From: Acidobacteriota bacterium
Lineage (GTDB): Bacteria > Acidobacteriota > Thermoanaerobaculia > Multivoradales > UBA5704
Direction of reading: 5' to 3'
DNA: 64,000 nt
Assembly: GCA_040005235.1 (NCBI GenBank)
Contig: JBDTZG010000006.1
Location: forward strand, 89,496 to 153,495
Positions 1,789-54,162 of the stretch are shown here, piece by piece. Each line of letters opens with the position of its first letter. Position 1 is the stretch's first letter. A model generated the notes under the pieces. That model was not told the DNA's origin, made no database searches, and saw nothing but the letters and a program-made list of their open reading frames with translations. A program made the position numbers and the translations under genes.

Positions 1789-1796
1789 ATTAAGCG

Positions 1797-2270: not shown

Positions 2271-4565
2271 TCAGCCGACCACCAGCTCGGCCGCCTCTTC
2301 GCTCCGCGCCATCTGGGCGGCGACTAGGCTCGCGTAGATCCCGTCTTGGGCCACCAGCTCGTCGTGCTGGCCCCGCTCGACCAGCAGGCCGTCGTCCATC
2401 ACCAGGATCAGGTCGGCGGCGCGAATCGTCGACAGCCGGTGGGCGACCACGATGCGGGTGCAGTGGAGGGCTTCCAGCTCTTTTTGAATCCGCCGCTCGG
2501 TCACCGAATCGAGCGCGCTCGTCGCTTCGTCGAGCAGCAGGATCGCGGGCTTGCGGACCAGCGCCCGGGCGAGCGCCAAGCGCTGACGTTGGCCGCCCGA
2601 AAGCGAGGCGCCGCCGTCGGCGACCAGCGTTTCGTACCCCATCGCCATCGCCTGAACGTCGGCGTGAATGTGGGCTTTCTCCGCCGCCCGAGCGACGTCG
2701 GCGAGCGACAGGTCGGGATCGGCGAGGGCAATGTTGCCGCGGATCGAGCTGCCGAACAGGTAGGGATGCTGGGGGACCACGCCAATCTGGTTCCGGAGCG
2801 AACGGAACTCCAATTCGGCGAGGTCGAGCCCGTCGTACAGGATGCGCCCGGAGGTCGGCACGTAGAGGCCGACGAGCAGCCCGGCGAGCGTCGATTTGCC
2901 CGCGCCCGACTTTCCGACCAGGGCGACGAATGTGCCGGGGGGGATCTCGACCGAGACGTCCTTCACCACGAACGGCAGCGAAGGCCCGTAGCGGAATGCC
3001 ACCTGCTCCAGCCGAATTGCTCCCGACAGGCGCGGCGTGCGCCGGACCTTGGTCAGGTCCTGCTCGGGCGGCGTCTCCATCACGTCGTTGATCCGCTCTA
3101 GGTAGCCGCCGAGCAGCTGGAGCTGGAATGCGGTCGAAACCAACGTCGAGAGCGGGGTGAGGAAGCCGTTTGCGAGTGCGTTCAACGCCAGCATGGTGCC
3201 GAGGGTGAGCTCGCCGTTCAGCACTTGGTGCGCGCCGAACAGCATGATCACAAGCGGCGAGCCGCTCTGAAGAGCGGCGAGCATCGCGTCGACCAGCGCC
3301 TGCAACCGGCCGCGGGCGAGCGAGACGTTCAGGGTGTCGACGAACAGGTGCGACCAGTGCTCGACCGCCCGCTGCTCGGTGCCGCTCGCCTTGAGCGTCT
3401 CGATGCCTGAGAGCATCTGCACCTGATAGGTCTGCGACGCCGCCTGCGCCTGGAGCGACTCGGACATCAGATCGCCAGTCTTCCGGCGCGCGGCGAAGAA
3501 GAGGATCAGCCGCAAAACGCCGAGCCCCAGGACCAGCAGTCCCATCGACGGCGACGCGGCGAAGACGAACACGAGATAGAGGACGACCAGCGTGCCGTCG
3601 AGTACGCCGGACAGAGCGCCCGAGGTGAGGATTTCGCGCACCGTGGCGTTCGAGTTCAGGCGCATCATCAGGTCGCCCGCCGAACGCTGTTGGAAGAACA
3701 GGTAGGGCAGGTTGACCAGGTGGTCGAGGAAATCGAGCGTCATCTGCGCGTCGAGCCGGGTGCGCAACGCGAGTAGCAGGTAGGAGCGCACGAGGGAGGC
3801 GAAGTACTGGAACAGGACGATCGCGCCGAGCCCGATCGCGAGCAGTTGGAGGAGCGACAGATCCCCCTGCGGCAGGACGCGGTCGACGATCATCCCGGTG
3901 AGCACGGGCAGAGCGAGCGCGAGCAGTTGGACCAGGACGGAGATCGCGACCACCCGGCCGAGCCAGCCGGACTGGCTGAACAGTTGCCGCAGGTAGCGGC
4001 GCACGCCGGAGGGGCGTTTGTCCGCCGGCTCGAACGCCTCGCCCGGCTCGAACATCAGCGCGACGCCGGTGAACGCGGTGCGCGCCTCTTCGAACGGCAC
4101 TACGCGCCGGCCGCCACCGGGATCGACGATCGCCAGGCGATTGCCCGAGAGCAGCCGCTCGAACACGACGAAGTGGTTGAACCGCCAATGCAGGATGCTG
4201 CCCGGATCGACGAAGCGGAGATCCTCGATCCGCTCGACCTTCACCCCGCGCCCGCGCAGGCCGAACCACTCGCCGCCGCGCAGGATCGATGGGGCCGAGG
4301 CTCCCTCGCGGCCAAAGCCGACGATCTCGCGCACCTCGTCGAGCCGCATATTTTTGCCGTGGTAGCCGAGCACCATGGCCAGGCAGGCGGAGCCGCAATC
4401 GGACGCCGCCGTCTGCTGGACGTAGGGGACGCGCTTCTTTCCGCCGGCCCAGGCGGTGAGGCGGGTGAGCGCCGGGAAGCGGCCGACGAGGCCGCCTTTA
4501 GCTCGCGGAAGAGTTGGTCCGCCGTCAGGAGAGGAATCCTTCGCCGGCTCCACGGGGGCCGCCAT
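2271..4565 (-). CDS. Peptidase-C39-containing ABC exporter (PCAT, bacteriocin/RiPP-type)
   Basis: ORF 2271..4658 trimmed to the ATG at 4565, which forms a TGATG overlap with the upstream HlyD stop. C39 motif QQTAASDCGSACLAMVLGYHG includes the catalytic Cys. Also a TM exporter domain, Walker A GKSGAGKST, signature LSGGQRQRLALARAL and Walker B ILLLDEATSALD. Confidence 0.9.
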   Translation of the reverse strand: MAAPVEPAKDSSPDGGPTLPRAKGGLVGRFPALTRLTAWAGGKKRVPYVQQTAASDCGSACLAMVLGYHGKNMRLDEVREIVGFGREGASAPSILRGGEWFGLRGRGVKVERIEDLRFVDPGSILHWRFNHFVVFERLLSGNRLAIVDPGGGRRVVPFEEARTAFTGVALMFEPGEAFEPADKRPSGVRRYLRQLFSQSGWLGRVVAISVLVQLLALALPVLTGMIVDRVLPQGDLSLLQLLAIGLGAIVLFQYFASLVRSYLLLALRTRLDAQMTLDFLDHLVNLPYLFFQQRSAGDLMMRLNSNATVREILTSGALSGVLDGTLVVLYLVFVFAASPSMGLLVLGLGVLRLILFFAARRKTGDLMSESLQAQAASQTYQVQMLSGIETLKASGTEQRAVEHWSHLFVDTLNVSLARGRLQALVDAMLAALQSGSPLVIMLFGAHQVLNGELTLGTMLALNALANGFLTPLSTLVSTAFQLQLLGGYLERINDVMETPPEQDLTKVRRTPRLSGAIRLEQVAFRYGPSLPFVVKDVSVEIPPGTFVALVGKSGAGKSTLAGLLVGLYVPTSGRILYDGLDLAELEFRSLRNQIGVVPQHPYLFGSSIRGNIALADPDLSLADVARAAEKAHIHADVQAMAMGYETLVADGGASLSGGQRQRLALARALVRKPAILLLDEATSALDSVTERRIQKELEALHCTRIVVAHRLSTIRAADLILVMDDGLLVERGQHDELVAQDGIYASLVAAQMARSEEAAELVVG

Positions 4566-6658
4566 CAGCGTCGACCTCCGCCGAGCAGGACGCGAAGGCC
4601 CGGAATCAGCGCGGTCGCGAGCGGCTCGGAGCGAAGGCTCACCTCGGCGTTGCCCCACATGCCGTCATAGAACGCGTACCGGTGGCCGTCGACCGTGAAT
4701 CCCGACTCGGGCAGCCGCGCCCAGGCGAACACCACCGGGCCGGAAATCTGCGCCCCTTCTCCAACCCCCGAGCCGAGCATACGCCGGGCCTCTTCGGGGC
4801 CAAGCACCTCGTCGCTCACCGACTCGATCTGCAACCGCTGGTAGGCATAGCGAAAGCCATCGAGCTCCAGGCGGATCGGCAGTCCCGCCTCTAGCTGCGG
4901 CCGGACCTTGCCGGGCAAAAGCACGGCGACCCGCGGTGCGCCGCCGGTCTGCGCGCCGGTCGAAAGCGATGCGATCACTTGGCCCGGAACCACCTGCTGC
5001 CCGGCGCGGACCCGGACGTCGGCGACCACCCCGGCGCGCGGCGCGCGCACGTCGCGCTCGGCTAGCCGCGATTTCGCCAGCTCGATCTGGCCGGCGAGGC
5101 CGATCAACGCCGATTCGGCGCCCCGATCGCCGGGATCGCGCAATCGGGAGGCGAGTTGCAGCTCGAACTCTCCTTCCAGCTGCGAAAGCTCGGCCGCCTC
5201 CGGTCCGCCGTAGAGATGGACCAGGGTGGCTCCTTCCGCCACCCGGGTGCCGGGCGGCGCCTCGATCGAGGCGACCGTTCCGGCGGCGGTTGCGGTGATC
5301 TCGCTCCGCCCGCCGAGCCGGATGACGGCGACGCCGGTCGAGCGCTCGTGAATCCGGCCGAAGATCAGGAACAAAAGGCCGATTCCGGCCATCCCGAGCA
5401 GCAGCCACGACGCCCAATCGATCCAGACCGGCGAAATGCGCAGAAGATCGCCCTCCTTCCGCGCCGAGGTCATGTGAAAGTCGAGTGCCTCTTCGCGGAA
5501 GACGTCGAGCGCCCCTTCGCGCAGCTGGCGCTCCTCGCGCTTGCCCTGCTCGGCGAGCCGCGATTCGAGGGCGAGCTGGGCGAGAGCTGGGGCCGCCCGC
5601 TCGGCGTAGAGCGCCAACGCCGCGCGATCGGCGGCGGAGAACGGTTCGGCACCCGGATCGCGCAGGGCGGCAAGCACCGCGATGACCGGAGCCGGGACTG
5701 GCGGAGCTCCGGGAACCGCCTGGCCGTCGGGGGACGGCCCGCCCGCGGCGGGATCGCGCACCGCGATCGCGGCGAACGGCCCTTGACCGGAACCTTCCGG
5801 ATCGTCGGCCTCGCGCTCGAAGCGGGGATCGTCCGCCAGCCGCGCCGCCGCGACCGACCGGCCGGTGCGCGCGACGAAGCTGACCACGCCGACCGCCGCG
5901 CTCTCGCGCCGCTCCTCGGCGGACATGCCGCCCCGCCGCTCCCAAAGCACCTCGGTCTCGGCGTCGTACAGCAGTACGTGGGCGCGGGAGGCGCCGATCA
6001 GATCGGCCAGGTCCTCGCGTACCAGATAGGCCACGGCGGCCGGGTCGCGCTCGCCCGCCAGCCGGCCTGCGGCGGTGAGCACCCGCCGCGAAAGCTCCGC
6101 CCGCTCGTCACGCTTTGGCACCGGAAGGGCAACGGTCCCGGCGAGCGCGAGCCCTTCGGCCTGCGGCTTGACCGGGTTCGCGGCCTTGGCCGGCACCCGG
6201 TCGGTGAAGTCGTCCTGGATGCGTAGCGCCCGGAACCGGGAGATCGCGCTTTCGAGCAGAGCGGAAAGATCCTCGCCGCCGATCGACTGCAGGCTGAGGA
6301 AGAAGATCCGGTCCTCGTCGATCAGCTCCTGGAAGACGGCGGGATCGGGGCCGCCGGAGGCGAGAAGATGGAGAGTACGTGCCTCCGGAAAGCGTTCGCG
6401 CAGCGATTCCAGCAGATGCCGCGCCGGGAGACCCGAAAATCCGGGCCCCAAGGCGAGCACCGCCACTTCGCCGTCTGTCTCGGCCCGGGCAAAGCGCGCG
6501 ATGACCTCGGCTTCGGTGCGGGCGGCCTCTACATCCACGTCATCGCCGAAACGCCGACGCTGCGCCTCGGTCTCCGCCTCGGAGAATCCGGCGAGCAGCA
6601 ACGACGCCTCCGGTTCCGGGGCGCGGACCAACCTCATCGTGTCGCGGTTCGTAGCCAC
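4565..6658 (-). CDS. HlyD-family membrane fusion protein with a ~400-aa N-terminal cytoplasmic extension containing a GAF-like domain
   Basis: TM helix WASWLLLGMAGIGLLFLIF followed by HlyD lipoyl-like motifs (APPGTRVAEGATLVHLY; VRAPRAGVVADVRVRAGQQVVPGQVIASL). The N-terminal part has a GAF-like segment (VVSFVARTGRSVAAARLADDPRF ... VIAVLAAL...FSAADRAALALYAERAA). The start could instead be the ATG at 6637. Confidence 0.8.
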   Translation of the reverse strand: MATNRDTMRLVRAPEPEASLLLAGFSEAETEAQRRRFGDDVDVEAARTEAEVIARFARAETDGEVAVLALGPGFSGLPARHLLESLRERFPEARTLHLLASGGPDPAVFQELIDEDRIFFLSLQSIGGEDLSALLESAISRFRALRIQDDFTDRVPAKAANPVKPQAEGLALAGTVALPVPKRDERAELSRRVLTAAGRLAGERDPAAVAYLVREDLADLIGASRAHVLLYDAETEVLWERRGGMSAEERRESAAVGVVSFVARTGRSVAAARLADDPRFEREADDPEGSGQGPFAAIAVRDPAAGGPSPDGQAVPGAPPVPAPVIAVLAALRDPGAEPFSAADRAALALYAERAAPALAQLALESRLAEQGKREERQLREGALDVFREEALDFHMTSARKEGDLLRISPVWIDWASWLLLGMAGIGLLFLIFGRIHERSTGVAVIRLGGRSEITATAAGTVASIEAPPGTRVAEGATLVHLYGGPEAAELSQLEGEFELQLASRLRDPGDRGAESALIGLAGQIELAKSRLAERDVRAPRAGVVADVRVRAGQQVVPGQVIASLSTGAQTGGAPRVAVLLPGKVRPQLEAGLPIRLELDGFRYAYQRLQIESVSDEVLGPEEARRMLGSGVGEGAQISGPVVFAWARLPESGFTVDGHRYAFYDGMWGNAEVSLRSEPLATALIPGLRVLLGGGRR

Positions 6659-11785: not shown

Positions 11786-13756
11786 TCACGCGCCTTCCGG
11801 GCGCACGACCATCCGGTCGTCGCCCATTCGGCGCGTGGCGCCCGTCGAGTCGAGATGTTCGAGCAGCGGGATCGCCCATTTGCGCGTTAGTCCGAAATGG
11901 TCCTTGAACTGGCCGACGTTGAAACGTGGCCAGCCGGTTGCGAACAGCCGGCGTTTCAGCTCGGCGACCGCGGAGGCGGCGAGGATCAGGCCGGAGGGGA
12001 GCTTGATCAGCTCACCCTTCGCCACCAGGTGGCGGATCACTCCGTCCACGATCTGGGGTTTGGCGGAGAGCGCCTGCCCTAGGTCGCCGGGCGAAGGGGG
12101 GGCGAGACCGCCGGCATCGAAGCGCGCGAGCACTTGAGTCGACAGGTCCGACTCCTCCGAGGTGAGCTGCGAGCCGCGGCCGGGGAGCGTCACCTGATCG
12201 CCTGAGACCTGAAGGATCTTCTGCTTGGCGAGCCAGTCGAGGTAGACATCCGCCAGCTCCGCGCCGCGACCGCGCACGATGCGGCGTACGGCATCCGCCT
12301 TGGGAATCGCGACCGCCAGCCGGTCGCGCTTGAAATGCTCGGCCAGCACCTTGGCGGCCCGCTCCGCCAGCCGCTGGTAGGTCGCGGGAGCGAGAAATCG
12401 CCGGCCGCGGCCGGGGCCGGGCGGCACGGCGAGGAGCTTGCCTTGGTTGGTCAGTCGGCGGAGATCCGCTTCGATCGCGATTGGGCGCACACCCAGCCTC
12501 CGCGCGAGGTCGTCGATCTCCGCGCCGCGCTCTCCCGACTCCAGCACCCAGAAGCCGAGCGCCGCAGACAGCTCGCCCGAGCTCCCGAGCGCAGCCAGTG
12601 CGGGGGTAAGGAGCCTTCCGCGATAGGGCCGCCAGGCAGGATCGAGGATCTCACCGCCGCCGAGCGTCGCGGCGGGCGAGGGACGCCGGACGACGAATCG
12701 ATCGCCGCGCCGGGCGACGACCGGCGCCGCGAGGCGGATCTCCGCCAGGCCGCGCTCGCCGGGGGCCAGCTCTGCCGGATCGAGCGGACGGAGGCGGCCG
12801 TAGACCTCGCTCGCGAACAGGTGCAGTCGGATCGGCACGAAGCCCGAAAGGGAAGCGGGTGCATCGGGCAGCAGCTCGAAACGGACCAGCAGCCGCGCAC
12901 TCACGGCGAAGGTTCCCGGTTCGACGAGCGTCAACCCACGCGACATCGCTTCGAGCGGCAGTCCGGCGATCTGGAGCGAGGTCCGCTCACCCGCTTCCGC
13001 CAGCTCGCGCGGCTCGCCGTGGACCTGAATGCTCCTCACCCGCACCCGCTCGCCGCCGGGTAGAACCTCCAGCGTGTCGCCGGTCCGGATCGCGCCGCTC
13101 GCGAGTGTGCCGGTGACGATCACCCCGAGGCCCTTGAGGTGGAACGCCCGATCGATCGGCAATCGAGTGGGCAGGCGGGGAAGGAGCGCCGCTTCGGCCG
13201 GCGTCGTTGCCTCGACCGCCGCATCCAGCATCGAAGGCTCGTACTCGGCACGATCGGCGAGCGCCAGGATCGCCGCCTCCAGCTCAAGGATTCCTTCACT
13301 TGTTGTGCTCGACACCGGCAGGATTGGCGACCCGGCAAATGGAGTCGCGGCAAGCAGCTCTTCGACTTCAAGCTGCGCCAGCTCGCGGAGGTCTTCGGTC
13401 ACCAGATCGATCTTGGTGAGCGCGACCAGTCCGTAGGGGATGCCGAGCAGCGAGCAGACGGCCAAATGCTCGCGGGTCTGGGGCTTCACCCCTTCGTCGG
13501 CCGCCACCACCAGCAGCATTGCGCGGATGCCCCCGAGCCCGGCGAGCGCGTTGTGCAGAAACCGCTCGTGGCCGGGGACGTCGACGAAACCGATCTGCAG
13601 ATCGCCGCGGGAGAGGTGGGCGAAGCCGAGATCGATCGTGATTCCCCGGGCTTTCTCCTCCGCCCAGCGATCGCAATCGATGCCGGTGAGCGCCCGGACG
13701 AGCGAGGTCTTGCCGTGGTCGATATGCCCGGCGGTGCCGATCACGAATCTGCGCAT
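11786..13756 (-). CDS. selB: Selenocysteine-specific translation elongation factor SelB
   Basis: [27 protein letters not shown] and LTKIDL GTPase motifs, plus a long winged-helix C-terminal extension (656 aa total). The start overlaps the yqeY stop (TGATG). Confidence 0.92.
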
Positions 13757-21465: not shown

Positions 21466-21990
21466 ATGACGTCGCCGGTTCAATCAAAAAAGATCGAACT
21501 TTTCCGAAAAAAGAGTGAGCTCGAGCGCCTAAAGAGCGAACTCGAACCGTTCGAAAGCGAACTTTTCCGAAAAAAGAGTGAGCTCGAACCGTTCGAGAAC
21601 GTTCTCGAGGAGTTTGAAAGCGAACTTGAGCGCCTGAAAAGTGATCTCGAACCGTTTGAGAGTGAACTCGGGGAGCTGAAAAGTGAACTTCAGGAGCTCG
21701 TAAGTGAACTTCTGAGGCCTGCGCGGCCTCTACCGCGCCGCCCGGAACACCAGCGAGGCCCAGAAGCTTTCCCAGTCTGCGTCTTTTGTGTCTTTCGGCG
21801 CCTCGATCATGTGGACGGCTTTGATCAGCCAGATCTCCCCTCCGGCGGGGCCGGCGGGGAGCTTGAAACGGACCCGGCCCTGGGCGTCGGTGCGGGCTTT
21901 CTGCGCTCCCGCTTCCGGCTTCGAGTGGGGGAGCGCCACCACCAGGGCTCCGGCGAGCGGCTGGCCTTTGTAGAGCAGGCGGACCGGTAG
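21466..21990 (+). CDS. Heptad-repeat (coiled-coil) small protein; the 3' end is doubtful
   Basis: This is the only open frame over the 21-bp repeat array. Differences between repeat units at the S-E-L codons are mostly synonymous (AGT/AGC, GAA/GAG, CTC/CTT). After 21720 the frame runs antisense through the convergent DUF4198 gene for ~260 nt with junk-like sequence, and no clear SD is present. Confidence 0.4.
   Translation: MTSPVQSKKIELFRKKSELERLKSELEPFESELFRKKSELEPFENVLEEFESELERLKSDLEPFESELGELKSELQELVSELLRPARPLPRRPEHQRGPEAFPVCVFCVFRRLDHVDGFDQPDLPSGGAGGELETDPALGVGAGFLRSRFRLRVGERHHQGSGERLAFVEQADR
21490..21720 (+). repeat. Tandem repeat, 21 bp x 11 units
   Basis: Units begin at 21490, 21511, 21532 ... 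21700. Consensus is (A/G)A(A/G) AG(T/C) GA(A/G) CT(C/T) NNN NNN NTN. Contains the palindromes ctcgaac-c-gttcgag and gagaacgttctc. Confidence 0.9.
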
Positions 21991-22545
21991 GTCGGCGTCG
22001 GCCGGCAGCTCGAAGGGGTTCTTCTCGGCGACCAGCTCCAACTCCATTCCGACCGGTTTGTCGAATCCGGTTCCCGACGTGCCGCCGACCGCGAGCAGCG
22101 CCTTGACGCAGCGGGAGTACACCTCGCGGCTGGGCTTGTCGCTCTCGTTCTTCTTCTTGCGCAGGTCGATGATCCGCTCCAGCCCTTCGAGCCGCAAGTA
22201 GTCCTCGAACTTCTGCGGTTCGAGGCTGACCGAGGCACGGTTGGTGTCGTAGACGATCTGGTAGATCCCGGCCGGGCCGACCGAGGCGTAGCCTGCCGGT
22301 TCGCCGCCGCGGATGCCCTGGACCTGCTTTTCGCCGTTCGGGCCGAGGATCGCGAAGCGTTCGATGCGCGCCGGGTCGCGCGGCACCGGATCGCCCACGA
22401 AGTTCTCGCCCACCCGCAGGCGGACCCCCAGTTGGGCATTGGGCGCCGGGGAGAGATTCATCGGCTCGATCCAGAAGTCGTGGGCGACGGCGGGGGTGGC
22501 CGCGAGAAGCAAGGCGAGGGCGATCGATCGGTTCATGGCGTCCAT
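21730..22545 (-). CDS. DUF4198 domain periplasmic protein
   Basis: Signal peptide MNRSIALALLLAATPAVA followed by the HDFWIEP signature. The start is ATG 22545 or 22536; the listed ORF extends to 22623. Confidence 0.75.
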   Translation of the reverse strand: MDAMNRSIALALLLAATPAVAHDFWIEPMNLSPAPNAQLGVRLRVGENFVGDPVPRDPARIERFAILGPNGEKQVQGIRGGEPAGYASVGPAGIYQIVYDTNRASVSLEPQKFEDYLRLEGLERIIDLRKKKNESDKPSREVYSRCVKALLAVGGTSGTGFDKPVGMELELVAEKNPFELPADADLPVRLLYKGQPLAGALVVALPHSKPEAGAQKARTDAQGRVRFKLPAGPAGGEIWLIKAVHMIEAPKDTKDADWESFWASLVFRAAR

Positions 22546-22656
22546 TCTTGGGCGGAGTGTATCGAGAGTCGAGGGTCTACCGTCTTTCAAGGAAAAACGG
22601 GGCGGGCCTCTCCGAGCGCCCACCCCGTCCGCCCCTCTCAGGAGGGCGCCGCCGGT

Positions 22657-38429: not shown

Positions 38430-38591
38430 AGAAAGACGGAATCGCCTCCGGGAAGAGGTGCGATGCTCCCCGGCATCGAGGCACCGGCTCTCGGCCGAAG
38501 TACTTTGGAATCCGTTCTTTGTACCCAGGTTACCGGATCCGATGCGTCACGTTTCGGCAGCGGGGCTCAGGCTGCGGCAAGCAGACGCACA

Positions 38592-38802
38592 GCGCTGTGC
38601 ACCCCTGCAATTCTCCAATGCACCTGTGCGCCGGCAGATTGCACAGGTGCAAAACGCTGGAGCACCACTGCAAAGTTGCAGCGCACCTTTGCGCCGCGGC
38701 AGTGCGCCTGTGCAGTAGGAAATTGCACAAGTACAGAATGCTGGCGCACCACTACAAAATCGTAGCGCACCTATGCACTGCGGCGTTGCACGGGTGCAAA
38801 AC
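38592..38802. repeat. Tandem repeat of 3 units (64, 84, 63 bp) rich in short palindromes
   Basis: Units are 38592-38655, 38656-38739 and 38740-38802. Shared core: GCTGG(A/C)GCACCACT(G/A)CAAA..G.AGCGCACCT.TGC...GCGGC...TTGCAC(A/G)(G/A)GT(G/A)CA(A/G)AA(C/T). All six frames are open across it. Confidence 0.85.
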
Positions 38803-38870
38803 GCCGGCTGCCGAAGCCTCGATACAGTAGACCAGCATCTCCCGCCCACCGTGGCGGATGGGGAGAAGCT

Positions 38871-39167
38871 ATGCTTCATCTCAGTTCTTTCAGGCGGAAG
38901 GAAATCGCCCATCGACGCTTTGGCGGAAGCCCCGATCCTTAGAACCGAGCGACGCTCGCGCGCCGATTCTGGGGGCAGGGCTTGGCGACCGAGTCCGCCC
39001 GGGCCGCCCTCGACCACGCCTTCGCCGTTTGGCGAAAGGATCTCGTCATCAGCCTTATTCACCCGGAGAACCGCGCCTCCGTTCGGGTGGCCGAACGGCT
39101 CGGGGAGAGCCTCGTCGGCCGCATCCCTCACGGCGGGCGGGAGATGCTGGTTTACGGTACCCACCGG
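38871..39167 (+). pseudogene. GNAT (RimJ/RimL-like) N-acetyltransferase remnant with internal deletion/frameshift
   Basis: One frame reads APILRTER (a typical GNAT N-terminal strand) and another frame reads RRFWGQGLATESARAALDHAF...ISLIHPENRASVRVAERLG (GNAT motif A and C-terminus). The ~100 aa normally between them are missing, and the ATG at 38871 hits a TAG after 23 codons. Confidence 0.5.
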
Positions 39168-40726: not shown

Positions 40727-40878
40727 CGGGTTCTCCTTCGTCAGATCCGAGGTGAAGGGCTCCTCGGGCAGTCGAGGGAAGAAACCCCGCCGGCGGGATT
40801 TTCTTGCGGTTTCTCGGTCAGGTTGCGCAGAGCCCCGCCGCCCCGATGATAGGGTTCCGCCTCACCCGGGAGAACGCG

Positions 40879-41979
40879 ATGAGCGAGGAAATTCTGCGAC
40901 GCACCCCTCTGTACGATCTGCACCGCGAAGCGGGCGGAAAGATGGTCCCGTTCGCCGGTTGGGAAATGCCGGTCCAATATACCGGCGTGATCGAAGAGCA
41001 CACGGCGGTCCGCGAGCGGGCGGGGTTGTTCGACGTCTCGCATATGGGCGAGTTCCGGGTCGACGGCAAGGGCGCCACCGCCTTTTTGGATGCCTTGACC
41101 CCCAACCACGTCGCCAAGCTCGCCATCGGCCGGGCGCACTACAGCGGCCTGCTGAACGAGGGCGGCACCTATATCGACGACCTTTTGATCTATCGCCTGG
41201 GGGACGAGTCCTACCTGGTGGTGGTGAACGCCAGCAACGTCGATCGCGATTTCGCCTGGATCGCCGAGCGCGCGCCGACCGGGGTGACGGTTGAAAACGT
41301 CTCCGACGCTTACGCTCTGCTCGCGCTTCAGGGGCCGAAGGCGGTCGAAATCCTTGCCCAGCTCACTTCGACCGACCTGTCCGCGATCCGCTACTACGGC
41401 TTCGCCATGGGCGAGGTCGCCGGGGTCCAGGCGTTGATCTCGCGCACCGGCTATACCGGAGAGGACGGCTTCGAGCTGTACGTGCCGCCGGACGGCGCCC
41501 CCGCGGTCTGGCGCAAGCTGTTCGAGGTCGGCGCGGCGCACGGACTTCAGCCGGCGGGCCTGGGCGCGCGCGACACCCTGCGGCTGGAAGCCGGCATGGC
41601 GCTCTACGGCCACGAGCTGAACGAGACGACCACGCCGTTCGATGCCGGGCTCTCCTGGGTGGTCAAGCTCGACAAAGGGCATTTCGTCGGCCGCGACGCT
41701 CTGGTCGCGCAAAAGGCGCGCGGCCTCACCCGGCAGCTCGCGGGCTTCGAGATCGAGGGGCGCGGAATCGCCCGCGAGGGCCATGCCGTGCAGGTCGATG
41801 GCGCCGCGGTCGGCGCGGTCACCAGCGGCACCTGGAGCCCGACGTTTCAAAAGGCGCTCGGCCTGGCCTACGTGCCGGTCGGGCAGGCGGCGGAGGGGAC
41901 CGGAATCGCAATCGAGGTGCGCGGCAAGGCACTGCCCGCCCGGATCGTCAAAACCCCGTTCTACCAGCGGAGCAAATAG
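40879..41979 (+). CDS. gcvT: Glycine cleavage system aminomethyltransferase GcvT
   Basis: The ATG at 40879 gives [34 protein letters not shown]. Confidence 0.93.
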
Positions 41980-42119
41980 GATTTTCTCCGGCTTGGCGCC
42001 AGTGCTATAACCTGCGCCGAAGTTCACCATTCGCGGCGGGAGTCGCTCCTTGGGTGCCCCCGCCGACGTTTACCGGCCCGACTCTCAAGTCCGGCCGACC
42101 TGGAGGGCATTCTCACAAC

Positions 42120-42506
42120 ATGTATCCCAGCGACTATCTTTATTCGAAGGAGCACGAGTGGGTGCGGGTAGAGGATGACGTTTGCACCCTCGGGATCACC
42201 GAGTACGCCCAGGCGGAGCTCGGCGAGGTGGTGTTCGTCGAGCTGCCCGAAGTGGGCCAGGTCTTCGATTCCGGCGACGAGATCGGCACCATCGAATCGG
42301 TCAAGGCGGTGGCCGAGATCTATACCCCGCTCGCGGGCGAGATCCTGGAGATCAACGAGGCGGTGGTCGACGATCCCGAGATCCTGAACGAGGATCCGCA
42401 CCACGAAGGGTGGCTGGTCAAGATGCGTTTCTCCTCGGCCGACGACATCAAGAGCCTGATGAACGCCGAGGAGTACGAGAAGTTCGCGACCGAAGGCGGG
42501 GAGTAA
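42120..42506 (+). CDS. gcvH: Glycine cleavage system H protein
   Basis: GGAGGG SD upstream of the ATG at 42120. Lipoyl-lysine motif TIESVKAVAEIY. Confidence 0.93.
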   Translation: MYPSDYLYSKEHEWVRVEDDVCTLGITEYAQAELGEVVFVELPEVGQVFDSGDEIGTIESVKAVAEIYTPLAGEILEINEAVVDDPEILNEDPHHEGWLVKMRFSSADDIKSLMNAEEYEKFATEGGE

Positions 42507-42509
42507 CCC

Positions 42510-45446
<2,937 letters not shown>

Positions 45447-45846: not shown

Positions 45847-46209
45847 TCATCCTCCCGAGGGCTTGACCTTCCAGCCGCGCTTTTCCAGCTCGGCGACCAG
45901 GGCATCGCGATGGTCGCCCTGGATCTCGATCGTTCCGTCTTTGACCGTTCCTCCCGAGCCGCAGCGCCTTTTGAGCTCCCCCGCCAGCCGGGCGAGATCC
46001 TCTCCTGCCAAGGGGACCCCCGTGACGATCGTGACCCCTTTGCCCGCGCGACCCTTCGTCTCTCGCCCCACGCGCACGATGCCATCGGCCGAACCGGCCG
46101 GCGCCGCGGGCCGGCTGCACGCGCAGCGCTCGACCGGCCAGCCGCATTTCGGGCAGACCCGCCGCTCGGTCGAGTAGACCAGCCCGCTCCTTTTACTCTC
46201 CGGCGCCAA
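45847..46209 (-). CDS. yciH: Translation initiation factor SUI1/YciH family
   Basis: LVYSTE N-terminus, GKGVTIVTG and GGTVKDGTIEIQGDHRD. TTG start at 46209, overlapping the LanB-like stop by 17 nt. Confidence 0.85.
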   Translation of the reverse strand: MAPESKRSGLVYSTERRVCPKCGWPVERCACSRPAAPAGSADGIVRVGRETKGRAGKGVTIVTGVPLAGEDLARLAGELKRRCGSGGTVKDGTIEIQGDHRDALVAELEKRGWKVKPSGG

Positions 46210-49200
46210 TTTTTCCGCCGTCGACCTCCACCTTCCCCTTCCGAGCCCGGGCCGCCCGGGCTTGGTATTCGCGGTGGAGGAGTCCGTAGATCACCGCCTC
46301 GTGGGCTCGGGCGGCGGAGCGGATCATGCGGTTGAGGTGCATGTGGATCAAGCTCCCGGCGAGGTCGACCCTTTGCAGCTCGCCCGCGGCTTCGAGGCGC
46401 GCGAGCTCGGCGAGGGCCGGGGCGGAGCGGCGGGAACGTTCGGCGAGGATCGCGTAGCCGGGAGCCAGAGGATCGTCCTCCGCGGGCTCGGGGGCGAGCA
46501 GGGCGGCCAGGCTCTTCTTCTCGGTCCGGTATTTCTGGTCGATCGAGACGTCCAGGCTCTTCTGGCCGCCGAATTCCTTGGCGAAGTTCTCGCGCATCGC
46601 GCCCATCAGAGTGATCTTCCGCTCGTCCGCGATCCCCAAGTCGGCGAGGATCAGATCCGCGCCGCGGAACGCCAGGCGCCAGCGGGCGTCTGCCCCCTCG
46701 TCCCCTTCGAGCGTCTCGACGATGCTCAAGGAGGCGTCGCTGTCGAATCCGAACAGCGTCTCGCAGATGGGCATGCCGAGCGCACCTCCGTATCGCTCGG
46801 TCTCGCGCTCGTAGGTGTCGAGCTGAATCTTCCAGGCGCGACCGTCGGCGAGCAGCGGAGACACCGCCTTTTCCAGCCGCGGAAGGGCGTGGAGCAGCAG
46901 GGTGTGGGGATCGCCATGCAGGCGGATCCTCAGATGCCATTCGGGATCGCCGTAGCGAATGAAGAACCAGGAATCTACATCGCCCACGCTGAGCGCCTCG
47001 CGGATCGCCGGGCCGATCGCATCGCGCATGATTCCGTCCGCGGTCGAGTTTCCCGTATAGACCTTGAGGTAGAGCCACTCCGAACCGGGCGGGAAGCTGC
47101 GCCGGAGGATCGATTGGGTGGTGGCGGTCGACTTGGGAGGCTGTGCCGCAGGCAGGGTCGCCGCGCCGTCCGACTCACCCTTCGCGTTGTCCGCAGTCGC
47201 CGGAACCGCCGCAGCTCCGGCCGGCTTGCGGTCGTAAGGGACCACGATCTCGTGGAAGAACCGCCCTTCGGGTCCCGTCACGCAGAGCTTGTCCGGCCCG
47301 GGGAACAGCTCGTGGAGGACCGCCTGCTTGCGCTCCTCGATCAGGTCGAAGAACGTATCCAGCTCCAGCGGGTTCTCGAAATCGACCAGCAGCTCGTTGT
47401 CGCCATCGGCGAGCGTTGCGAGGCGTGGGATCTTCCGCCGCTCGCGCCAGGCCCGCGCCGCGGCGAGCAGGCCGGCGCCTTTCGCCTTCTTGAGCGTCTC
47501 GATCTCTTCCTCGGTCATCCTCCAGGTCGCGCGGGAAAGGATCGTCCGGCCCAACCGCACGCGCGGCAGGAACGCCGCGCCGTCGAACTGCCCCCAGCCC
47601 CAATAAAGACCGGCGGCCACGTTCTGCGATTGAAGGGTGCAGAGGAAGCGGTAGAGCCCCAGGCTCCCCATCGCGAAGTTGTGCGCGGACGAAAGCCGCG
47701 GAATCACCTCGCGGCGCAGTGAACGCGAGCGGATGACGATCCGGTTGCCGGTGACTGTGACGTCCAAATCTGAGACCGCAATCTGTTTGTCGGCCGGCGC
47801 GCCGGAGCGGCCGAGGAACGGAATCTCGTATTCGCGCAGCACGGGCCGGGCGAGGATGTTGCCGATCCGGCCCTGTGGCAGGTGGACCACCTCGGCGAAG
47901 ATCGCGCCGGGCTGGTGGGCCTCTTCTGCGCGCAGGTGATCGAGGGTCAAGCGGGTCAGTTCTGCGTCCGCATGGCAGAATCGGCCGAGCAGCCGCGCGC
48001 CGGACGGCCCGCCCGCGCCGCGCCAGAGCACCTCGAAGCGCCCCGCGTCCAAATCCTCTTCCGAAGCGGCGGACAGCGTCGCCATCACCTGGAAGGAATC
48101 GGGCAGCGGGGCGGCGTCGGTCACCTTGAGCTTCTCGACGTCGGAATCGGAGATCTCGATCTCAGTGATGCCCGAAGCGAGTGCGGTTTCGAGCTTGCTC
48201 ATCATCACCGCTTGGAAGTTGCCCCAGGGAACGGTCTGCGCGGCCGCCGGGCCGCCGAGTGCCACCCCTGCGAGCAGGGGCGAGGCCTCCGCCCCGGCGC
48301 TGCGCGATTTTTCGTAGCCGATCCCCACCTCTTCGTCCAGCACTTCAAGCAGCGGCACCCACCGGCCCTCGCCGTAGCGTTCGCCGAAATCGCGGCGAAA
48401 ATTGTCCAGCGACTCCAACCGCGAGCGGCCGAACATCTTGTGCAGTACCTCGACCCCCCGCGTCAGCTCGGCGGTCACCGCCGCCCCTAGCGCGGCTTCG
48501 GCGACCGGCTTCACCATGTCGACCTGGAAGAGCCGCGACAGCTCGACCGGCGTCGGCAGCTCTTCCAGGCTGCGCTCGATCTCCCGGTAGCGCTCGGGAT
48601 CGGAGCCGACCCCCGCCGCGTCGATCGCCGCGATCGCATCGCGGGTCGCGAGCAGCCGCTCCCGCACCTTGTGGCCGATCGCCAGATCGGGCAGCGCCGC
48701 GAGCTGATCGAGTAGATCGTGGATCGACTCCTGCCCGGTCACCGGCAAGCCGAAATCGGGCACCAGCAGTTGGCTCTGCACCAGCTCGGTCAGATACTCG
48801 TCGGCATCCTCCCGCGTGATCTCGCCGTCGGGGTCCGAATCGACCAGAGCCTGGGCCAAATCTTCAATCCGCGCTCCGCCCTTGGCGCGCGCGAGCGTCT
48901 CTTCCAAGTACGAAGTGGGGGTCACCGCGACCAGGTGGTGCGAACGAACCTTCCCGTCCAGCCGCGCCTCGGCGTAGCGCATGCGCCCCGCCGCGTCGTA
49001 CAGGCTGCTGTTGGGCAGATAGGAGAGCGCGGCGCGGACGGTGGGGTCCTTGATCAGCTCCTCGACCAGGGCGAATAAATAGTCCATGTCGAGCCGCGTG
49101 TGCCGGTCGTACCGGGCGCGCGGAGCCAACCGCAACCGGGTGGGCTCGTCCACGCCGACCAGGCGCCCAACCGAGCAGCCCGAGAACAGACCGAAAGGCG

Positions 49201-49570
49201 TCGGCCGGGCGCACATTCGCAACACGTACCGAACGAGCGCCCGCTCGGCCCGCTGGCCCTTTTTCCCGTCCGGCTCTTTTTTCCACAAGTCGAGCCCGTC
49301 GGAGAGCGAAGGTGAAGCCAAGAACACCGACTCGCGCACCTCCGGCCGTTCGAGCAAAGCCCGCAGTCGTTCGCGCAACAGAGCTCGATCGGCGGCCCAG
49401 GCGGCGGCAAACTCCTCTTCCGCCTCGGCGGAAGTCCCCGGAGACGCCAACCCCGCTCCCCAGGCCTCCAGCTCTTCATAGGGATAGAGAGGAGTGCGGA
49501 AAGCAAAAAACCCCGACGGGGCAAAGGGGAATTCGGAAGCGGTCTTCGACTTGTCTTTATCGCGGCTCAC
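46193..49570 (-). CDS. Full-length LanB-type lanthipeptide dehydratase family protein (N-terminal glutamylation domain plus C-terminal SpaB_C/elimination domain)
   Basis: N-terminus SGFFAFRTPLYPYEEL is typical of Lant_dehydr_N. The C-terminal segment WLYLKVYTGNSTADGIM...WFFIRYGDPEWHLRIRLHG is typical of the SpaB_C / thiopeptide-type domain. 1125 aa, GTG start at 49570. Confidence 0.85.
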   Translation of the reverse strand: MSRDKDKSKTASEFPFAPSGFFAFRTPLYPYEELEAWGAGLASPGTSAEAEEEFAAAWAADRALLRERLRALLERPEVRESVFLASPSLSDGLDLWKKEPDGKKGQRAERALVRYVLRMCARPTPFGLFSGCSVGRLVGVDEPTRLRLAPRARYDRHTRLDMDYLFALVEELIKDPTVRAALSYLPNSSLYDAAGRMRYAEARLDGKVRSHHLVAVTPTSYLEETLARAKGGARIEDLAQALVDSDPDGEITREDADEYLTELVQSQLLVPDFGLPVTGQESIHDLLDQLAALPDLAIGHKVRERLLATRDAIAAIDAAGVGSDPERYREIERSLEELPTPVELSRLFQVDMVKPVAEAALGAAVTAELTRGVEVLHKMFGRSRLESLDNFRRDFGERYGEGRWVPLLEVLDEEVGIGYEKSRSAGAEASPLLAGVALGGPAAAQTVPWGNFQAVMMSKLETALASGITEIEISDSDVEKLKVTDAAPLPDSFQVMATLSAASEEDLDAGRFEVLWRGAGGPSGARLLGRFCHADAELTRLTLDHLRAEEAHQPGAIFAEVVHLPQGRIGNILARPVLREYEIPFLGRSGAPADKQIAVSDLDVTVTGNRIVIRSRSLRREVIPRLSSAHNFAMGSLGLYRFLCTLQSQNVAAGLYWGWGQFDGAAFLPRVRLGRTILSRATWRMTEEEIETLKKAKGAGLLAAARAWRERRKIPRLATLADGDNELLVDFENPLELDTFFDLIEERKQAVLHELFPGPDKLCVTGPEGRFFHEIVVPYDRKPAGAAAVPATADNAKGESDGAATLPAAQPPKSTATTQSILRRSFPPGSEWLYLKVYTGNSTADGIMRDAIGPAIREALSVGDVDSWFFIRYGDPEWHLRIRLHGDPHTLLLHALPRLEKAVSPLLADGRAWKIQLDTYERETERYGGALGMPICETLFGFDSDASLSIVETLEGDEGADARWRLAFRGADLILADLGIADERKITLMGAMRENFAKEFGGQKSLDVSIDQKYRTEKKSLAALLAPEPAEDDPLAPGYAILAERSRRSAPALAELARLEAAGELQRVDLAGSLIHMHLNRMIRSAARAHEAVIYGLLHREYQARAARARKGKVEVDGGKIGAGE

Positions 49571-49628
49571 AGTCGCGGGAAGCTATCACCGGTCGGCCGT
49601 TTGCTGGAATGCCCTGGGAAGGCTCCCC

Positions 49629-50732
49629 CTACTTCGACTTCACCCGCGTCCAGATCTCGTCGTACAGCTTCGAGGCGTCGCCCACGTCGCCCACCAGTTC
49701 CAGCTTCGCCATCATTTCGGGGGTCGGGTAGATGGCCGGATTCGCCAGATCTTCGGGCTTGACCAGCGGGTGCGAGGCTCTGTTGGGGGTGGCGTACTGA
49801 TTGAAGTTCGAGAGCTGCGCTCCGATCTTCGCGTCGAGGATGTAGTCGATGAATTTCTCGGCCCAGTCGGCGTGGGGAGCTTTGGCGGGAATCACCATGC
49901 TGTCGACCCAGATCACGCCGCCTTCGTCGGGGACGAAGAACTGGGTGTCCGGGTCGTCGGTCATACCGCGGGCGGCATCGCCGTTATAAACCACCGCGGC
50001 GGTGACCTCCTTGCCGAGGACTTTGTTCTTGCCGCCCACTCCGCCTTCGAAGCCTTGCGAGCGCTTCTTCGCTTCGATCAGCAGGGCTCCCGCCGCTTCG
50101 ATTTCGGCCGGGTTCGTGGTGTTGACGCTCTTGCCCTGGAACTTGAGGGCGGAGCCGAGCATTTCGCGGATCGAGTCCATCATCAGGAACGGTCCGGGTT
50201 GCTGCTTCGGGTCGAACAGCAGGTTCCAGGACGGGTTGTAGCTTTTTGCCTGGGACTTCCGGAGGTAGATCCCGACCGTTCCCCACTGGTAGGCCGCGGT
50301 GTACTTGTTGCCCGGATCGAACGCAGGGTTGGCGAACTTCTCGTCCAGGTTCGCCAGATTCGGGATGTTCGCGTGGCGCAGCTCGGCGAGCAGGCCGAGG
50401 TGGATCATCCCCGGGACCACGTAGCTGCTCGGCACCACGAGGTCGTATTGCGAGGTGCCGCCCGCCTGGAGCTTGGCGATCATGCTCTCGTTGTCTTCGT
50501 AGACCTCGGTGGTCACCTTGCAGGTATATTTCTGCTCGAACGACTTGACGATCGCGGGATCGATGTACTCGCTCCAGATGAACAGGTTGATGCTGCACGG
50601 CCCCGTGGGCTCGGTCGGTCCGGCGTTCTCGGCGATGGCGGGGGGCGCCGGGGCCTCGGCCTTCTTGGCGCAGGCGGAGAACCCGGGCAGGAGGAGCGCC
50701 AGGGCGACGAGGAACAAGCTGAATTTGCGCAT
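49629..50732 (-). CDS. potD: Spermidine/putrescine ABC transporter substrate-binding lipoprotein
   Basis: The ATG at 50732 gives MRKFSLFLVALALLLPGFSAC (lipobox), followed by a PotD/PotF-type body. TGATG overlap with the potC stop. Confidence 0.88.
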   Translation of the reverse strand: MRKFSLFLVALALLLPGFSACAKKAEAPAPPAIAENAGPTEPTGPCSINLFIWSEYIDPAIVKSFEQKYTCKVTTEVYEDNESMIAKLQAGGTSQYDLVVPSSYVVPGMIHLGLLAELRHANIPNLANLDEKFANPAFDPGNKYTAAYQWGTVGIYLRKSQAKSYNPSWNLLFDPKQQPGPFLMMDSIREMLGSALKFQGKSVNTTNPAEIEAAGALLIEAKKRSQGFEGGVGGKNKVLGKEVTAAVVYNGDAARGMTDDPDTQFFVPDEGGVIWVDSMVIPAKAPHADWAEKFIDYILDAKIGAQLSNFNQYATPNRASHPLVKPEDLANPAIYPTPEMMAKLELVGDVGDASKLYDEIWTRVKSK

Positions 50733-53823: not shown

Positions 53824-54162
53824 ATGAGTCGCTCGAAGCTCTTGCCGCTGTTCCTGTTTGTCGTCGTCCTCGCGTTGTTCGCCCTGCCGGGCTCCGCCGC
53901 TTCCGCCCCGGTGGCTCCGGCCGCCGCTCCGAGCGTCGCGGCACCGGCCTGCGGGATTGACGCGGGTTTGCTGTTTTCGACCGGTGTGAGCGCGGCGCCC
54001 AAGTCGTGCGGCGCGGCCCCGGCGGCGCAGGTCGGAGTGCCGGAGCCCGAGTTCCTCGCCAAGCGGCTTGGCTACTGCCATTGCGGCTGCTCATCCGCGC
54101 GGTGTCAGACCAGCGCGGATTGCGGCGGCTCCTCGTGCGACCCCTTCATCAGCTGCTGCTGA
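53824..54162 (+). CDS. Small secreted protein with a Cys/Ser/Thr-rich C-terminal tail
   Basis: GGGGGAGAAGGGAAAA purine tract upstream of the ATG. Sec signal MSRSKLLPLFLFVVVLALFALPGSAASA, an Ala/Pro-rich middle, and the tail LGYCHCGCSSARCQTSADCGGSSCDPFISCC (8 Cys, 7 Ser/Thr in the last 28 aa). Confidence 0.6.
   Translation: MSRSKLLPLFLFVVVLALFALPGSAASAPVAPAAAPSVAAPACGIDAGLLFSTGVSAAPKSCGAAPAAQVGVPEPEFLAKRLGYCHCGCSSARCQTSADCGGSSCDPFISCC

What the first reader, a model, noticed from the sequence alone, without database searches (positions are those of the whole stretch)
46193..49570. Orphan full-length LanB-type dehydratase embedded between potD and a SUI1/YciH gene
The 1125-aa protein has both halves of a class I lanthipeptide dehydratase: the tRNA-Glu-dependent glutamylation domain and the SpaB_C elimination domain. 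The window contains no LanC cyclase, no split-LanB partner, no YcaO or radical-SAM enzyme, and no adjacent short precursor ORF. The gene starts 58 nt after potD on the same strand, and its stop overlaps the start of a translation-factor-like SUI1/YciH gene by 17 nt. It therefore appears to be co-transcribed with housekeeping genes rather than within a biosynthetic island. Either its substrate is encoded elsewhere or this LanB acts on a non-canonical substrate. In-window candidates for dispersed partners are the Cys/Ser/Thr-rich peptide at 53824-54162 and the C39 exporter at 2271-4565.
Basis: partly seen in the sequence, partly recalled or inferred. Interest (0 to 1): 0.65.

Follow-up and report, generated by a model that had tools for sequence, protein, structure and literature searches.

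The report
Lanthipeptide dehydratase from a scattered cluster
This is an intact, evolutionarily maintained peptide-dehydrating enzyme (class I LanB) of a soil acidobacterium whose usual partner genes were deleted from beside it or lie elsewhere in the genome, so it is an ordinary enzyme in a fragmented gene cluster rather than a new kind of system.

Summary
Window 46193-49570 (-) encodes a full-length, catalytically intact class I lanthipeptide dehydratase. It starts 58 nt after potD and overlaps a SUI1/YciH gene by 17 nt. The 64-kb window holds no LanC, precursor or other RiPP enzyme.

It is not a housekeeping-operon oddity. The protein belongs to a large, mostly Thermoanaerobaculia LanB family that normally sits beside a LanC cyclase, precursors with the curated "lant_leader_L1a" leader, and a C39-ABC/HlyD exporter.

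In the window's closest relatives, the interval between LanB and SUI1 holds a variable cassette (PIG-L protein, 57-aa precursor, membrane protein). The window has a clean ~1.25-kb deletion there, and the 46-nt scar creates the overlap.

LanB is still under purifying selection (omega 0.14 in a precursor-less pair). The in-window C39-ABC/HlyD pair 42 kb away is orthologous to the exporter adjacent to LanB in the sister lineage. A related MAG carries a stand-alone precursor far from its LanB, and the window strain's metagenomes hold the same precursor type at matching depth.

Best reading: a dispersed but canonical class I lanthipeptide pathway. Still open: no LanC lies near LanB anywhere in this clade.

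The parts
46193..49570 (-). lanB: full-length class I lanthipeptide dehydratase, 1125 aa (glutamylation domain residues 74-739, elimination domain 832-1100)
   Evidence: Pfam and NCBIfam matches. PDB relatives are 9G04, MibB 5EHK and NisB 4WD9. All mapped NisB catalytic residues are conserved. omega is 0.12-0.15 with no stops or frameshifts.
46188..46233 (-). 46-nt deletion scar between the LanB and SUI1 homology blocks. It supplies LanB's last codons and stop and the TTG start of SUI1. The sister L087 has 1,248 nt here carrying PIG-L, LanA and their promoter region.
   Evidence: blastn of the window junction against L087. Junction alignments with L001 and L004. A contig joint skipping 1,721 nt relative to L003 appears in two independent metagenome assemblies.
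45847..46209 (-). SUI1/YciH translation-factor gene (120 aa, TTG start). It is a syntenic neighbour, not a demonstrated functional partner.
   Evidence: NF005297 at 166 bits and PF01253. Relatives start with ATG and are separated from LanB by 40-1,720 nt, often with opposite-strand genes in between.
49571..49628 (-). 58-nt potD-lanB intergenic spacer with no recognisable promoter or terminator
   Evidence: Sequence and promoter/terminator scan.
49629..50732 (-). potD-type periplasmic binding protein (367 aa), last gene of potABCD. Context only.
   Evidence: SBP_bac_8/6/1 matches and the L083 gene calls. potD lies upstream of LanB only in L003, L006, L084 and the window.
2271..4658 (-). C39-peptidase ABC exporter (LanT/PCAT type), the likely leader-cleaving exporter of the pathway, 42 kb from lanB on the same strand
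   Evidence: Peptidase_C39, ABC_membrane and ABC_tran domains. 85.5% aa identity to the L031 transporter next to LanB, and 64-66% to six others directly upstream of LanB. 81% nt identity over 3.4 kb to L031. omega 0.19.
4565..6658 (-). GAF/HlyD-type membrane-fusion protein paired with the exporter
   Evidence: HlyD_3 and GAF domains. 42-49% identity to the proteins 2.2 kb upstream of LanB in L030, L037, L039 and L053. omega 0.30 against L031.

Best explanation
The gene encodes a working class I lanthipeptide dehydratase. By homology it glutamylates Ser/Thr side chains of a leader-bearing precursor peptide using Glu-tRNA(Glu) (N-terminal domain), then eliminates glutamate to leave dehydroalanine or dehydrobutyrine (C-terminal domain). 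It is the surviving core of a small lanthipeptide gene cluster that has become fragmented in this lineage. The sister lineage (L031/L095) still has a contiguous cluster: HlyD/GAF, C39-ABC, LanA2, LanB, LanA1. In the window's subclade LanB sits between potD and SUI1, followed by a variable cassette (PIG-L-family protein, a convergent 57-58-aa LanA1 precursor, a membrane protein). In this genome the whole cassette was deleted, fusing the LanB 3' end onto the SUI1 start. LanB most likely acts in trans on one or more LanA1-type precursors (leader MK+KL+LxRxTxRxL...DG(N/G)G, core ...CPT+xC..SCYNTCLGGIC) encoded elsewhere in the genome. The modified peptide would be leader-cleaved and exported by the C39-ABC/HlyD pair at 2271-6658. 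Shown here: enzyme identity, intact active sites, purifying selection, the deletion, exporter orthology, and dispersed precursors in a related genome. Inferred: activity, which peptide is the substrate in this genome, use of this exporter, and how or whether thioether rings are closed, since no LanC was seen.
For: Domains and catalytic residues: NisB Y80, R83, R87, T89, D121, D299, R464, R784, R786, E823, R826 and H961 map to Y115, R118, R122, T124, D161, D351, R530, R881, R883, E923, R926 and H1076. Each is conserved in 76-79 of 79 family members (residue roles from PMC4341554). Family context: 51 of 80 genome loci have an adjacent LanC (PF05147) and 25 have an L1a-leader precursor (NF038153 at 27-29 bits against a cutoff of 22). 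Cassette and deletion: L084, L087 and L089 have LanB-PIG-L-LanA-(membrane protein)-SUI1, and L003 keeps LanA plus a decayed M23-like gene. The window has 46 nt where L087 has 1,248 nt, and the joint is present in independent assemblies. Phylogeny: L031 is sister to the subclade (100% bootstrap) and LanA-bearing L087 is sister to window+L001 (99%). Selection: omega for window vs L001 (both LanA-less) is 0.137, 95% CI 0.10-0.18, and 0.06 in the glutamylation domain. LanA-bearing pairs give the same range. Exporter orthology and selection. Dispersed precursors: P0126 is a stand-alone LanA1 on DATMZU010000707.1, the same MAG as L002 (LanB 91% identical to the window's), with no LanB, LanC or exporter within 10 kb. 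A contig in the window strain's two metagenomes encodes the identical C-terminal 22 residues at depth 17.4 and 12, against 16.9 and 10.2 for the window contig.
Against: No precursor has been shown to be in this genome; the depth-matched contig is only circumstantial. No LanC lies within the flanks available for any locus of this clade, although the precursor cores are Cys-rich. So either a cyclase lies elsewhere or the chemistry departs from the canon. The exporter link rests on orthology alone. There are no expression data. If the LanA deletions in the window and in L001 were independent and recent, the low omega would mostly reflect the time before the loss.
Confidence: 0.7

Rival explanations
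1. Stranded relic: after its precursor cassette was deleted, LanB has no substrate and is intact only because too little time has passed for decay.
For: The adjacent LanA, PIG-L and membrane-protein cassette is gone. The window holds no LanC or LanA. The LanB-SUI1 interval is an indel hotspot with repeated losses in L001, L002, L004, L006 and L007.
Against: omega is 0.137 (CI 0.10-0.18) over dS 0.25 between two cassette-less genomes, and is the same in cassette-bearing pairs. Every catalytic residue is intact. The exporter pair is intact and constrained. Six species-level lineages without the cassette all keep a full-length ORF. A dispersed precursor exists in the L002 MAG, and the same type exists in this strain's metagenomes.
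Confidence: 0.12
2. LanC-independent variant: in this clade (L027, L029, L033, L035, L031/L095 and the window's subclade) the LanB pathway works without a LanC. Rings would close spontaneously or through a non-LanC protein, or the products would keep dehydro residues and free thiols.
For: No LanC lies within the flanks available for any of more than 14 loci of this clade, whereas LanC is immediately convergent to LanB in most other Thermoanaerobaculia loci. LanB+LanA pairs persist there with Cys-rich cores. LanC-anchored mining would have missed such loci (PMC7268733).
Against: Only up to 10 kb per side could be examined and no whole genome was searchable. Components of this family are demonstrably dispersed (exporter 42 kb away; an orphan LanA). 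Nine of 41 well-flanked loci have neither LanC nor LanA, so absence nearby is weak evidence. The cassette proteins PIG-L, 376 aa and 654 aa have signal-peptide-like N-termini, so they are poor candidates for a cytoplasmic cyclase.
Confidence: 0.13
3. Non-canonical substrate: LanB modifies SUI1/YciH or another housekeeping protein, which would explain the translational overlap.
For: The 17-nt overlap with SUI1 and the 58-nt gap after potD in this strain. LanB-SUI1 adjacency holds throughout the subclade.
Against: The overlap is unique to this strain. Relatives have 40-1,720 nt between the genes, often with opposite-strand genes, and an ATG-initiated SUI1. Outside the subclade LanB is never next to SUI1 or potD. 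SUI1 has no L1a-type leader. The family's conserved partners are LanA, LanC and LanT.
Confidence: 0.03
4. Thiopeptide- or linear-azole-peptide-type dehydratase, as the NCBIfam name 'thiopeptide-type bacteriocin biosynthesis protein' might suggest.
For: TIGR03891 matches the C-terminal domain.
Against: That model covers the shared elimination domain. No YcaO, cyclodehydratase, dehydrogenase or [4+2] cyclase is present in the window, and none appeared among the recurring neighbour-gene clusters or the annotated gene calls of the related loci. The precursors carry a curated class I lanthipeptide leader.
Confidence: 0.01

Closest known systems
NisB / MibB (class I lanthipeptide dehydratases; PDB 4WD9, 5EHK)
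   Same: Same two-domain architecture over the full length. All mapped glutamylation-site and elimination-site residues are identical.
   Different: The sequence relationship is distant (E 2e-50 to MibB, 4e-24 to NisB). The host is a Gram-negative acidobacterium. No lanC or lanA lies beside it, and the export module is a C39-ABC plus a GAF/HlyD fusion protein rather than NisT/NisP.
Class I lanthipeptide clusters with 'lant_leader_L1a' precursors (NCBIfam NF038153)
   Same: Precursors next to LanBs of this family match NF038153 above its cutoff. Their cores are rich in Ser, Thr and Cys. They carry a GG-type cleavage motif that suits a C39 exporter.
   Different: In this genome the precursor is not in the 64-kb window. 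The subclade's own LanA1 sequences (L003, L031) fall below the NF038153 cutoff and form a small distinct family of about 11 sequences.
Thiopeptide / goadsporin-type LanB dehydratases and split LanBs (e.g. TsrE-like elimination proteins, PDB 7CWW)
   Same: They share the elimination-domain fold family (TIGR03891 hit; weak 7CWW hit).
   Different: Here both domains are fused, and no azole-forming or pyridine-forming enzymes accompany them.
Small LanB / PEARL peptide-aminoacyl-tRNA ligases (e.g. PDB 6EC7)
   Same: They share the tRNA-dependent N-terminal domain family (weak hit to 6EC7).
   Different: PEARLs lack the elimination domain. This protein has a complete, conserved one.

Membership tests
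Class I lanthipeptide dehydratase (LanB) | Full-length N-terminal glutamylation domain (PF04738) | tested here: met
   568 bits, model positions 1-648 of 649.
Class I lanthipeptide dehydratase (LanB) | C-terminal glutamate-elimination domain (PF14028 / SpaB_C) on the same polypeptide | tested here: met
   220 bits over residues 832-1100; TIGR03891 at 212 bits.
Class I lanthipeptide dehydratase (LanB) | Catalytic residues of both active sites (NisB Y80, R83, R87, T89, D121, D299, R464; R786, E823, R826, H961) | tested here: met
   All are identical in the query and conserved in 76-79 of 79 relatives. Residue roles are from PMC4341554.
Class I lanthipeptide dehydratase (LanB) | Glu-tRNA(Glu)-dependent dehydration of Ser/Thr in a leader-bearing peptide | not testable with these tools
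   This needs a biochemical assay. It is inferred from homology only.
Class I lanthipeptide biosynthetic gene cluster | LanC cyclase (PF05147) encoded with LanB | tested here: not met
   There is no LanC in the 64-kb window, nor in the available flanks of any locus of the window's clade. 51 of 80 family loci do have one. The rest of the genome could not be searched.
Class I lanthipeptide biosynthetic gene cluster | Precursor peptide (leader plus Ser/Thr/Cys core) encoded with LanB | tested here: not met
   None is in the window. One is adjacent in relatives L003, L084, L087, L089 and L095. The L002 MAG has a dispersed copy, and a matching sequence occurs in this strain's metagenomes.
Class I lanthipeptide biosynthetic gene cluster | Dedicated exporter or leader peptidase | tested here: inconclusive
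   A C39-ABC plus HlyD/GAF pair lies 42 kb away and is orthologous to LanB-adjacent exporters. The functional link is untested.
Thiopeptide / LAP dehydratase system | Co-occurring YcaO cyclodehydratase and, for thiopeptides, a [4+2] cyclase | tested here: not met
   None is in the window. None appeared among the recurring neighbour-gene clusters or the annotated gene calls of related loci, which were not scanned exhaustively.
Small LanB / PEARL | Stand-alone glutamylation-type domain without an elimination domain | tested here: not met
   The elimination domain is present and conserved.

The most novel reading that the evidence does not exclude
A whole clade of Thermoanaerobaculia full-length LanBs (the window's subclade, L031/L095, and L027, L029, L033, L035) makes Cys-rich lanthipeptide-like products without any LanC. 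Thioether rings would form spontaneously or through an unrecognised cyclase. The LanB would be kept as a fixed chromosomal 'modifier' while precursor cassettes come and go beside it and elsewhere in the genome.
Probability: 0.15. Interest if true: 0.6.

Novelty: new member of a known kind. Interest (0 to 1): 0.3.

Why it matters
The case shows how an apparently orphan RiPP enzyme in a housekeeping context can be explained by comparative genomics: a cluster that fragmented and lost its adjacent precursor cassette. It cautions against reading tight gene overlaps as functional coupling. It also flags a practical gap. Lanthipeptide mining anchored on LanC, or on a neighbourhood of about 7 genes, misses such dispersed systems; 9 of 41 well-flanked loci in this family have a solitary LanB. 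It defines a small new precursor family (LanA1, ...SCYNTCLGGIC) from uncultured soil Acidobacteriota. It also identifies a LanC-less clade that would be worth a biochemical test.

Tried and rejected
(1) The 112-aa Cys-rich ORF at 53824-54162 as a precursor. Rejected: it has a Sec-signal-like N-terminus, no Pfam or leader hit, and is syntenic with the GT2 gene in L006.
(2) A hidden LanC, precursor or cassette gene in the window. A LanC HMM, two leader/precursor HMMs, tblastn with the PIG-L, 276-aa, 376-aa, 654-aa and M23-like proteins, and an intergenic short-ORF scan were all negative.
(3) PIG-L as a general partner or alternative cyclase. It occurs only in the L084-L089 lineages and has a signal-peptide-like N-terminus.
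(4) Two LanB paralogs in the DATMZM MAG. Rejected: the L095 LanB is 99% identical to the L031 LanB, so L031 and L096 are two pieces of one locus.
(5) Extending beyond the window through edge proteins. Only short Logan contigs were returned.
(6) RNA evidence for co-transcription. No RNA runs were found, and the sigma-70/terminator scan was uninformative. The one terminator-like hit at 49522-49510 lies inside the LanB coding sequence.
(8) Literature search for LanC-less full-length LanB systems in Acidobacteria found nothing specific in the held library.
(9) tRNA and Rfam scans of the window found nothing.
Full report
**Observation.** Window 46193..49570 (-) is a 1125-aa ORF with a GTG start. 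Its codon-position GC (GC3 0.84) is that of a real gene in this 67% GC genome. Pfam finds Lant_dehydr_N over residues 74-739 (568 bits, whole model) and Lant_dehydr_C over 832-1100 (220 bits). NCBIfam TIGR03891 covers the C-terminal domain. The potD-type binding-protein gene ends 58 nt upstream. A SUI1/YciH gene (45847..46209, TTG start, NF005297 at 166 bits) overlaps the LanB stop by 17 nt. An independent Logan assembly of the same strain (L083) has identical gene calls. The rest of the window is housekeeping: gcvTHP, potABCD, purD, purL, pta, ppk, selB, recO and others. The exception is a C39-ABC/HlyD pair at 2271-6658. No LanC, YcaO or radical-SAM gene and no precursor is present.

**The enzyme is intact and maintained.** Residue-level alignments to NisB (4WD9) map every residue implicated in glutamylation (Y80, R83, R87, T89, D121, D299, R464) and in elimination (R784, R786, E823, R826, H961) onto identical residues of the query: Y115, R118, R122, T124, D161, D351, R530, R881, R883, E923, R926, H1076. 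Each is conserved in 76-79 of 79 family members (roles from PMC4341554). Within the window's subclade all LanBs are full length without stops, and pairwise dN/dS is 0.12-0.15. For window vs L001 it is 0.137 (95% CI 0.10-0.18), and 0.06 in the glutamylation domain.

**The family.** The protein has more than 2,000 homologs, and those that carry a source name are labelled Thermoanaerobaculia or Acidobacteriota. A scan of one genome per GTDB species found 275 relatives, of which 80 loci were kept. They also include Myxococcaceae, Gemmatimonadota, Planctomycetota and others at about 50% identity. Neighbourhood analysis gave three recurring partners:
- **Cyclase.** A LanC (PF05147, 114 bits) lies next to LanB in 51 of 80 loci. 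It is usually convergent and immediately downstream in Thermoanaerobaculia.
- **Precursors.** Short precursor genes share a [KR]KLxLxRETLRxL leader, a GG-type motif and Ser/Thr/Cys-rich cores. Several match the curated model NF038153, 'lant_leader_L1a, class I lanthipeptide', above its cutoff.
- **Exporter.** A C39-ABC lies directly upstream of LanB, with a GAF/HlyD protein accompanying it in four loci.

This is therefore a canonical class I lanthipeptide family. Among the 41 loci with at least 5 kb on both sides, 31 have LanC, 14 have a detectable LanA and 9 have neither. Solitary LanBs recur in this family.

**The housekeeping context is a deletion product.**
- **Synteny is narrow.** potD-LanB-SUI1 synteny exists only in the window's own subclade (at least 85% identity). 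Even there LanB and SUI1 are 40-1,720 nt apart.
- **Relatives carry a cassette.** Searching with the 56-aa precursor found between LanB and SUI1 in L003 recovered a small LanA1 family (P0121-P0131) and more loci of the subclade. L084, L087 and L089 carry LanB, then a PIG-L-family protein, then a convergent LanA1 (with a 276-aa membrane protein or an M23-like protein), then SUI1. L003 keeps LanA1 and a decayed M23-like gene. L006 and L007 keep only the membrane protein. L001 has a toxin-antitoxin-like insert. L004 and the window have nothing.
- **The scar.** Against its LanA-bearing sister L087 (99% bootstrap), the window has 46 nt (46188-46233) where L087 has 1,248 nt. These 46 nt provide LanB's last codons and a TTG start for SUI1, whose relatives start with ATG.
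- **The joint is real.** Two independent metagenome assemblies show the same joint.

The overlap with SUI1 is a strain-specific scar, not a conserved operon feature.

**The cluster is dispersed, not gone.**
- **Sister lineage.** L031 plus L095/L096 are pieces of one locus, since their LanBs are 99% identical. It is sister to the subclade with 100% bootstrap and has a contiguous cluster: HlyD/GAF, C39-ABC, LanA2, LanB, LanA1, then a 376-aa and a 654-aa gene.
- **Exporter.** The window's C39-ABC is 85.5% identical to L031's (81% nt identity over 3.4 kb) and 64-66% identical to six other LanB-adjacent transporters. Its GAF/HlyD partner is likewise shared. Both are under purifying selection, with omega 0.19 and 0.30.
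- **Precursors can be separate from LanB.** P0126 is a stand-alone gene on DATMZU010000707.1, the same MAG as L002 (LanB 91% identical to the window's). It sits among unrelated genes: YCII, ECF sigma factors, a CoA-transferase and a BNR-repeat protein.
- **A candidate in this strain.** In the two metagenomes that hold the window strain, a separate contig encodes ...PTRGCHTFQGPSCYNTCLGGIC*, identical to P0126's last 22 residues. Its depth is 17.4 and 12, against 16.9 and 10.2 for the window contig. This is circumstantial evidence that the strain carries a dispersed LanA1.

**Mechanism proposed.** By homology, LanB binds the L1a-type leader. It glutamylates core Ser/Thr with Glu-tRNA(Glu) and eliminates glutamate to give Dha or Dhb. 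Cys residues then add to form (methyl)lanthionines. The C39-ABC/HlyD system cleaves after the DG(N/G)G motif and exports the peptide. Shown here are the identity, active sites, selection, deletion, exporter orthology and precursor dispersal. Inferred are the activity, the actual substrate, use of this exporter and the cyclisation step.

**What remains odd.** No LanC lies within the available flanks of any locus of the clade comprising L027, L029, L033, L035, L031/L095 and the window's subclade. Yet their precursor cores are Cys-rich. A trans-encoded LanC therefore cannot be excluded, and it is likely given how dispersed the other parts are. LanC-anchored mining (PMC7268733) would miss such loci. 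This is the basis of the 'novel case'.

**Rejected readings.**
- **Decaying relic.** Argued against by selection, intact active sites, the retained exporter and the dispersed precursors.
- **SUI1 or a housekeeping substrate.** The overlap is unique to this strain, there is no leader, and the association is absent outside the subclade.
- **Thiopeptide or LAP dehydratase.** No azole or pyridine machinery is present, and the precursors carry a lanthipeptide leader.
- **PEARL.** The elimination domain is present.
- **The 112-aa Cys-rich ORF as substrate.** It looks like a secreted protein and is syntenic with the glycosyltransferase gene.

**Verdict.** This is a new member of a known kind: a functional class I LanB from a fragmented cluster in an uncultured soil and root Thermoanaerobaculia bacterium. 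Interest is modest (0.3). The LanC-less clade and the cassette-like turnover of precursors are the parts worth following up.

Noticed in passing
window 1136-2179: A 59-nt direct repeat (1136-1194 and 2121-2179, 83% identical; each copy is a GC hairpin plus T-run terminator) brackets a lower-GC3 two-gene module: a 172-aa protein with no family (1270-1788) and an 89-aa ParE-like toxin (1797-2066). The module sits between the DUF11 gene and the stop of the C39-ABC gene. Toxin-antitoxin-type inserts also sit at the LanB/SUI1 edge in L001 and L084/L085.
   Followed up: partly
window 38590-38810: A non-coding array of about ten 21-nt units, each carrying GCACnnnTGC-like half-palindromes (TRF reports period 84 = 4x21 at 38638-38798). 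It lies in a lower-GC stretch (0.57-0.60) just upstream of what looks like a truncated GNAT-type acetyltransferase remnant. An inverted repeat follows at 38823-38863 / 39119-39159. There is no Rfam hit. It could be an iteron- or operator-like array.
   Followed up: partly
L003 13404-13446 and 13494-13531: A palindromic element of about 40 nt between LanB and LanA in L003. One arm occurs on many different contigs of the window strain's metagenomes (depth 147 against about 17). That points to a dispersed REP/MITE-like repeat in these Thermoanaerobaculia. It is absent from the window.
   Followed up: partly
L084 10224-11078, L087 6571-7425, L089 1906-2760: A PIG-L/LmbE-family protein (284 aa, PF02585) with a signal-peptide-like N-terminus is encoded 15 nt after LanB on the same strand in three lineages of the subclade only. 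Its role in a lanthipeptide cassette is unknown.
   Followed up: partly
L095 97-3435 (also L097): Two unannotated genes sit upstream of LanA1 on the same strand in the sister lineage: a 654-aa and a 376-aa protein. Both have signal-peptide-like N-termini and no Pfam hit on record, and the 376-aa one is Cys-rich. They may be immunity or processing proteins.
   Followed up: no
window 53824-54162 (+): A 112-aa protein with a Sec-signal-like N-terminus and a Cys-rich C-terminus (...CHCGCSSARCQTSADCGGSSCDPFISCC) and no family match. It is conserved beside the GT2 glycosyltransferase gene in L006. It is probably a secreted small protein, not a LanA.
   Followed up: partly
window 21466-21990 (+): This ORF contains 21/42-nt periodic tandem repeats (21495-21683) that encode a repetitive coiled-coil-like segment. 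It overlaps the 3' end of the convergent DUF4198 gene call (21730-22623), so one of the two calls may be wrong.
   Followed up: no
window 40727-40803 and whole window: No glycine riboswitch or any other Rfam family reached gathering score, despite a gcvT-gcvH-gcvP operon at 40804-45446. There is also no tRNA gene in 64 kb, although selB is present at 11786-13756.
   Followed up: no
L015, L022, L023, L025, L050, L054, L059 (and L006, L007): Other LanBs of this family are also solitary, with neither LanC nor an L1a-leader precursor within at least 5 kb on either side. That is 9 of 41 well-flanked loci, so dispersal or loss of partners is common in the family.
   Followed up: partly
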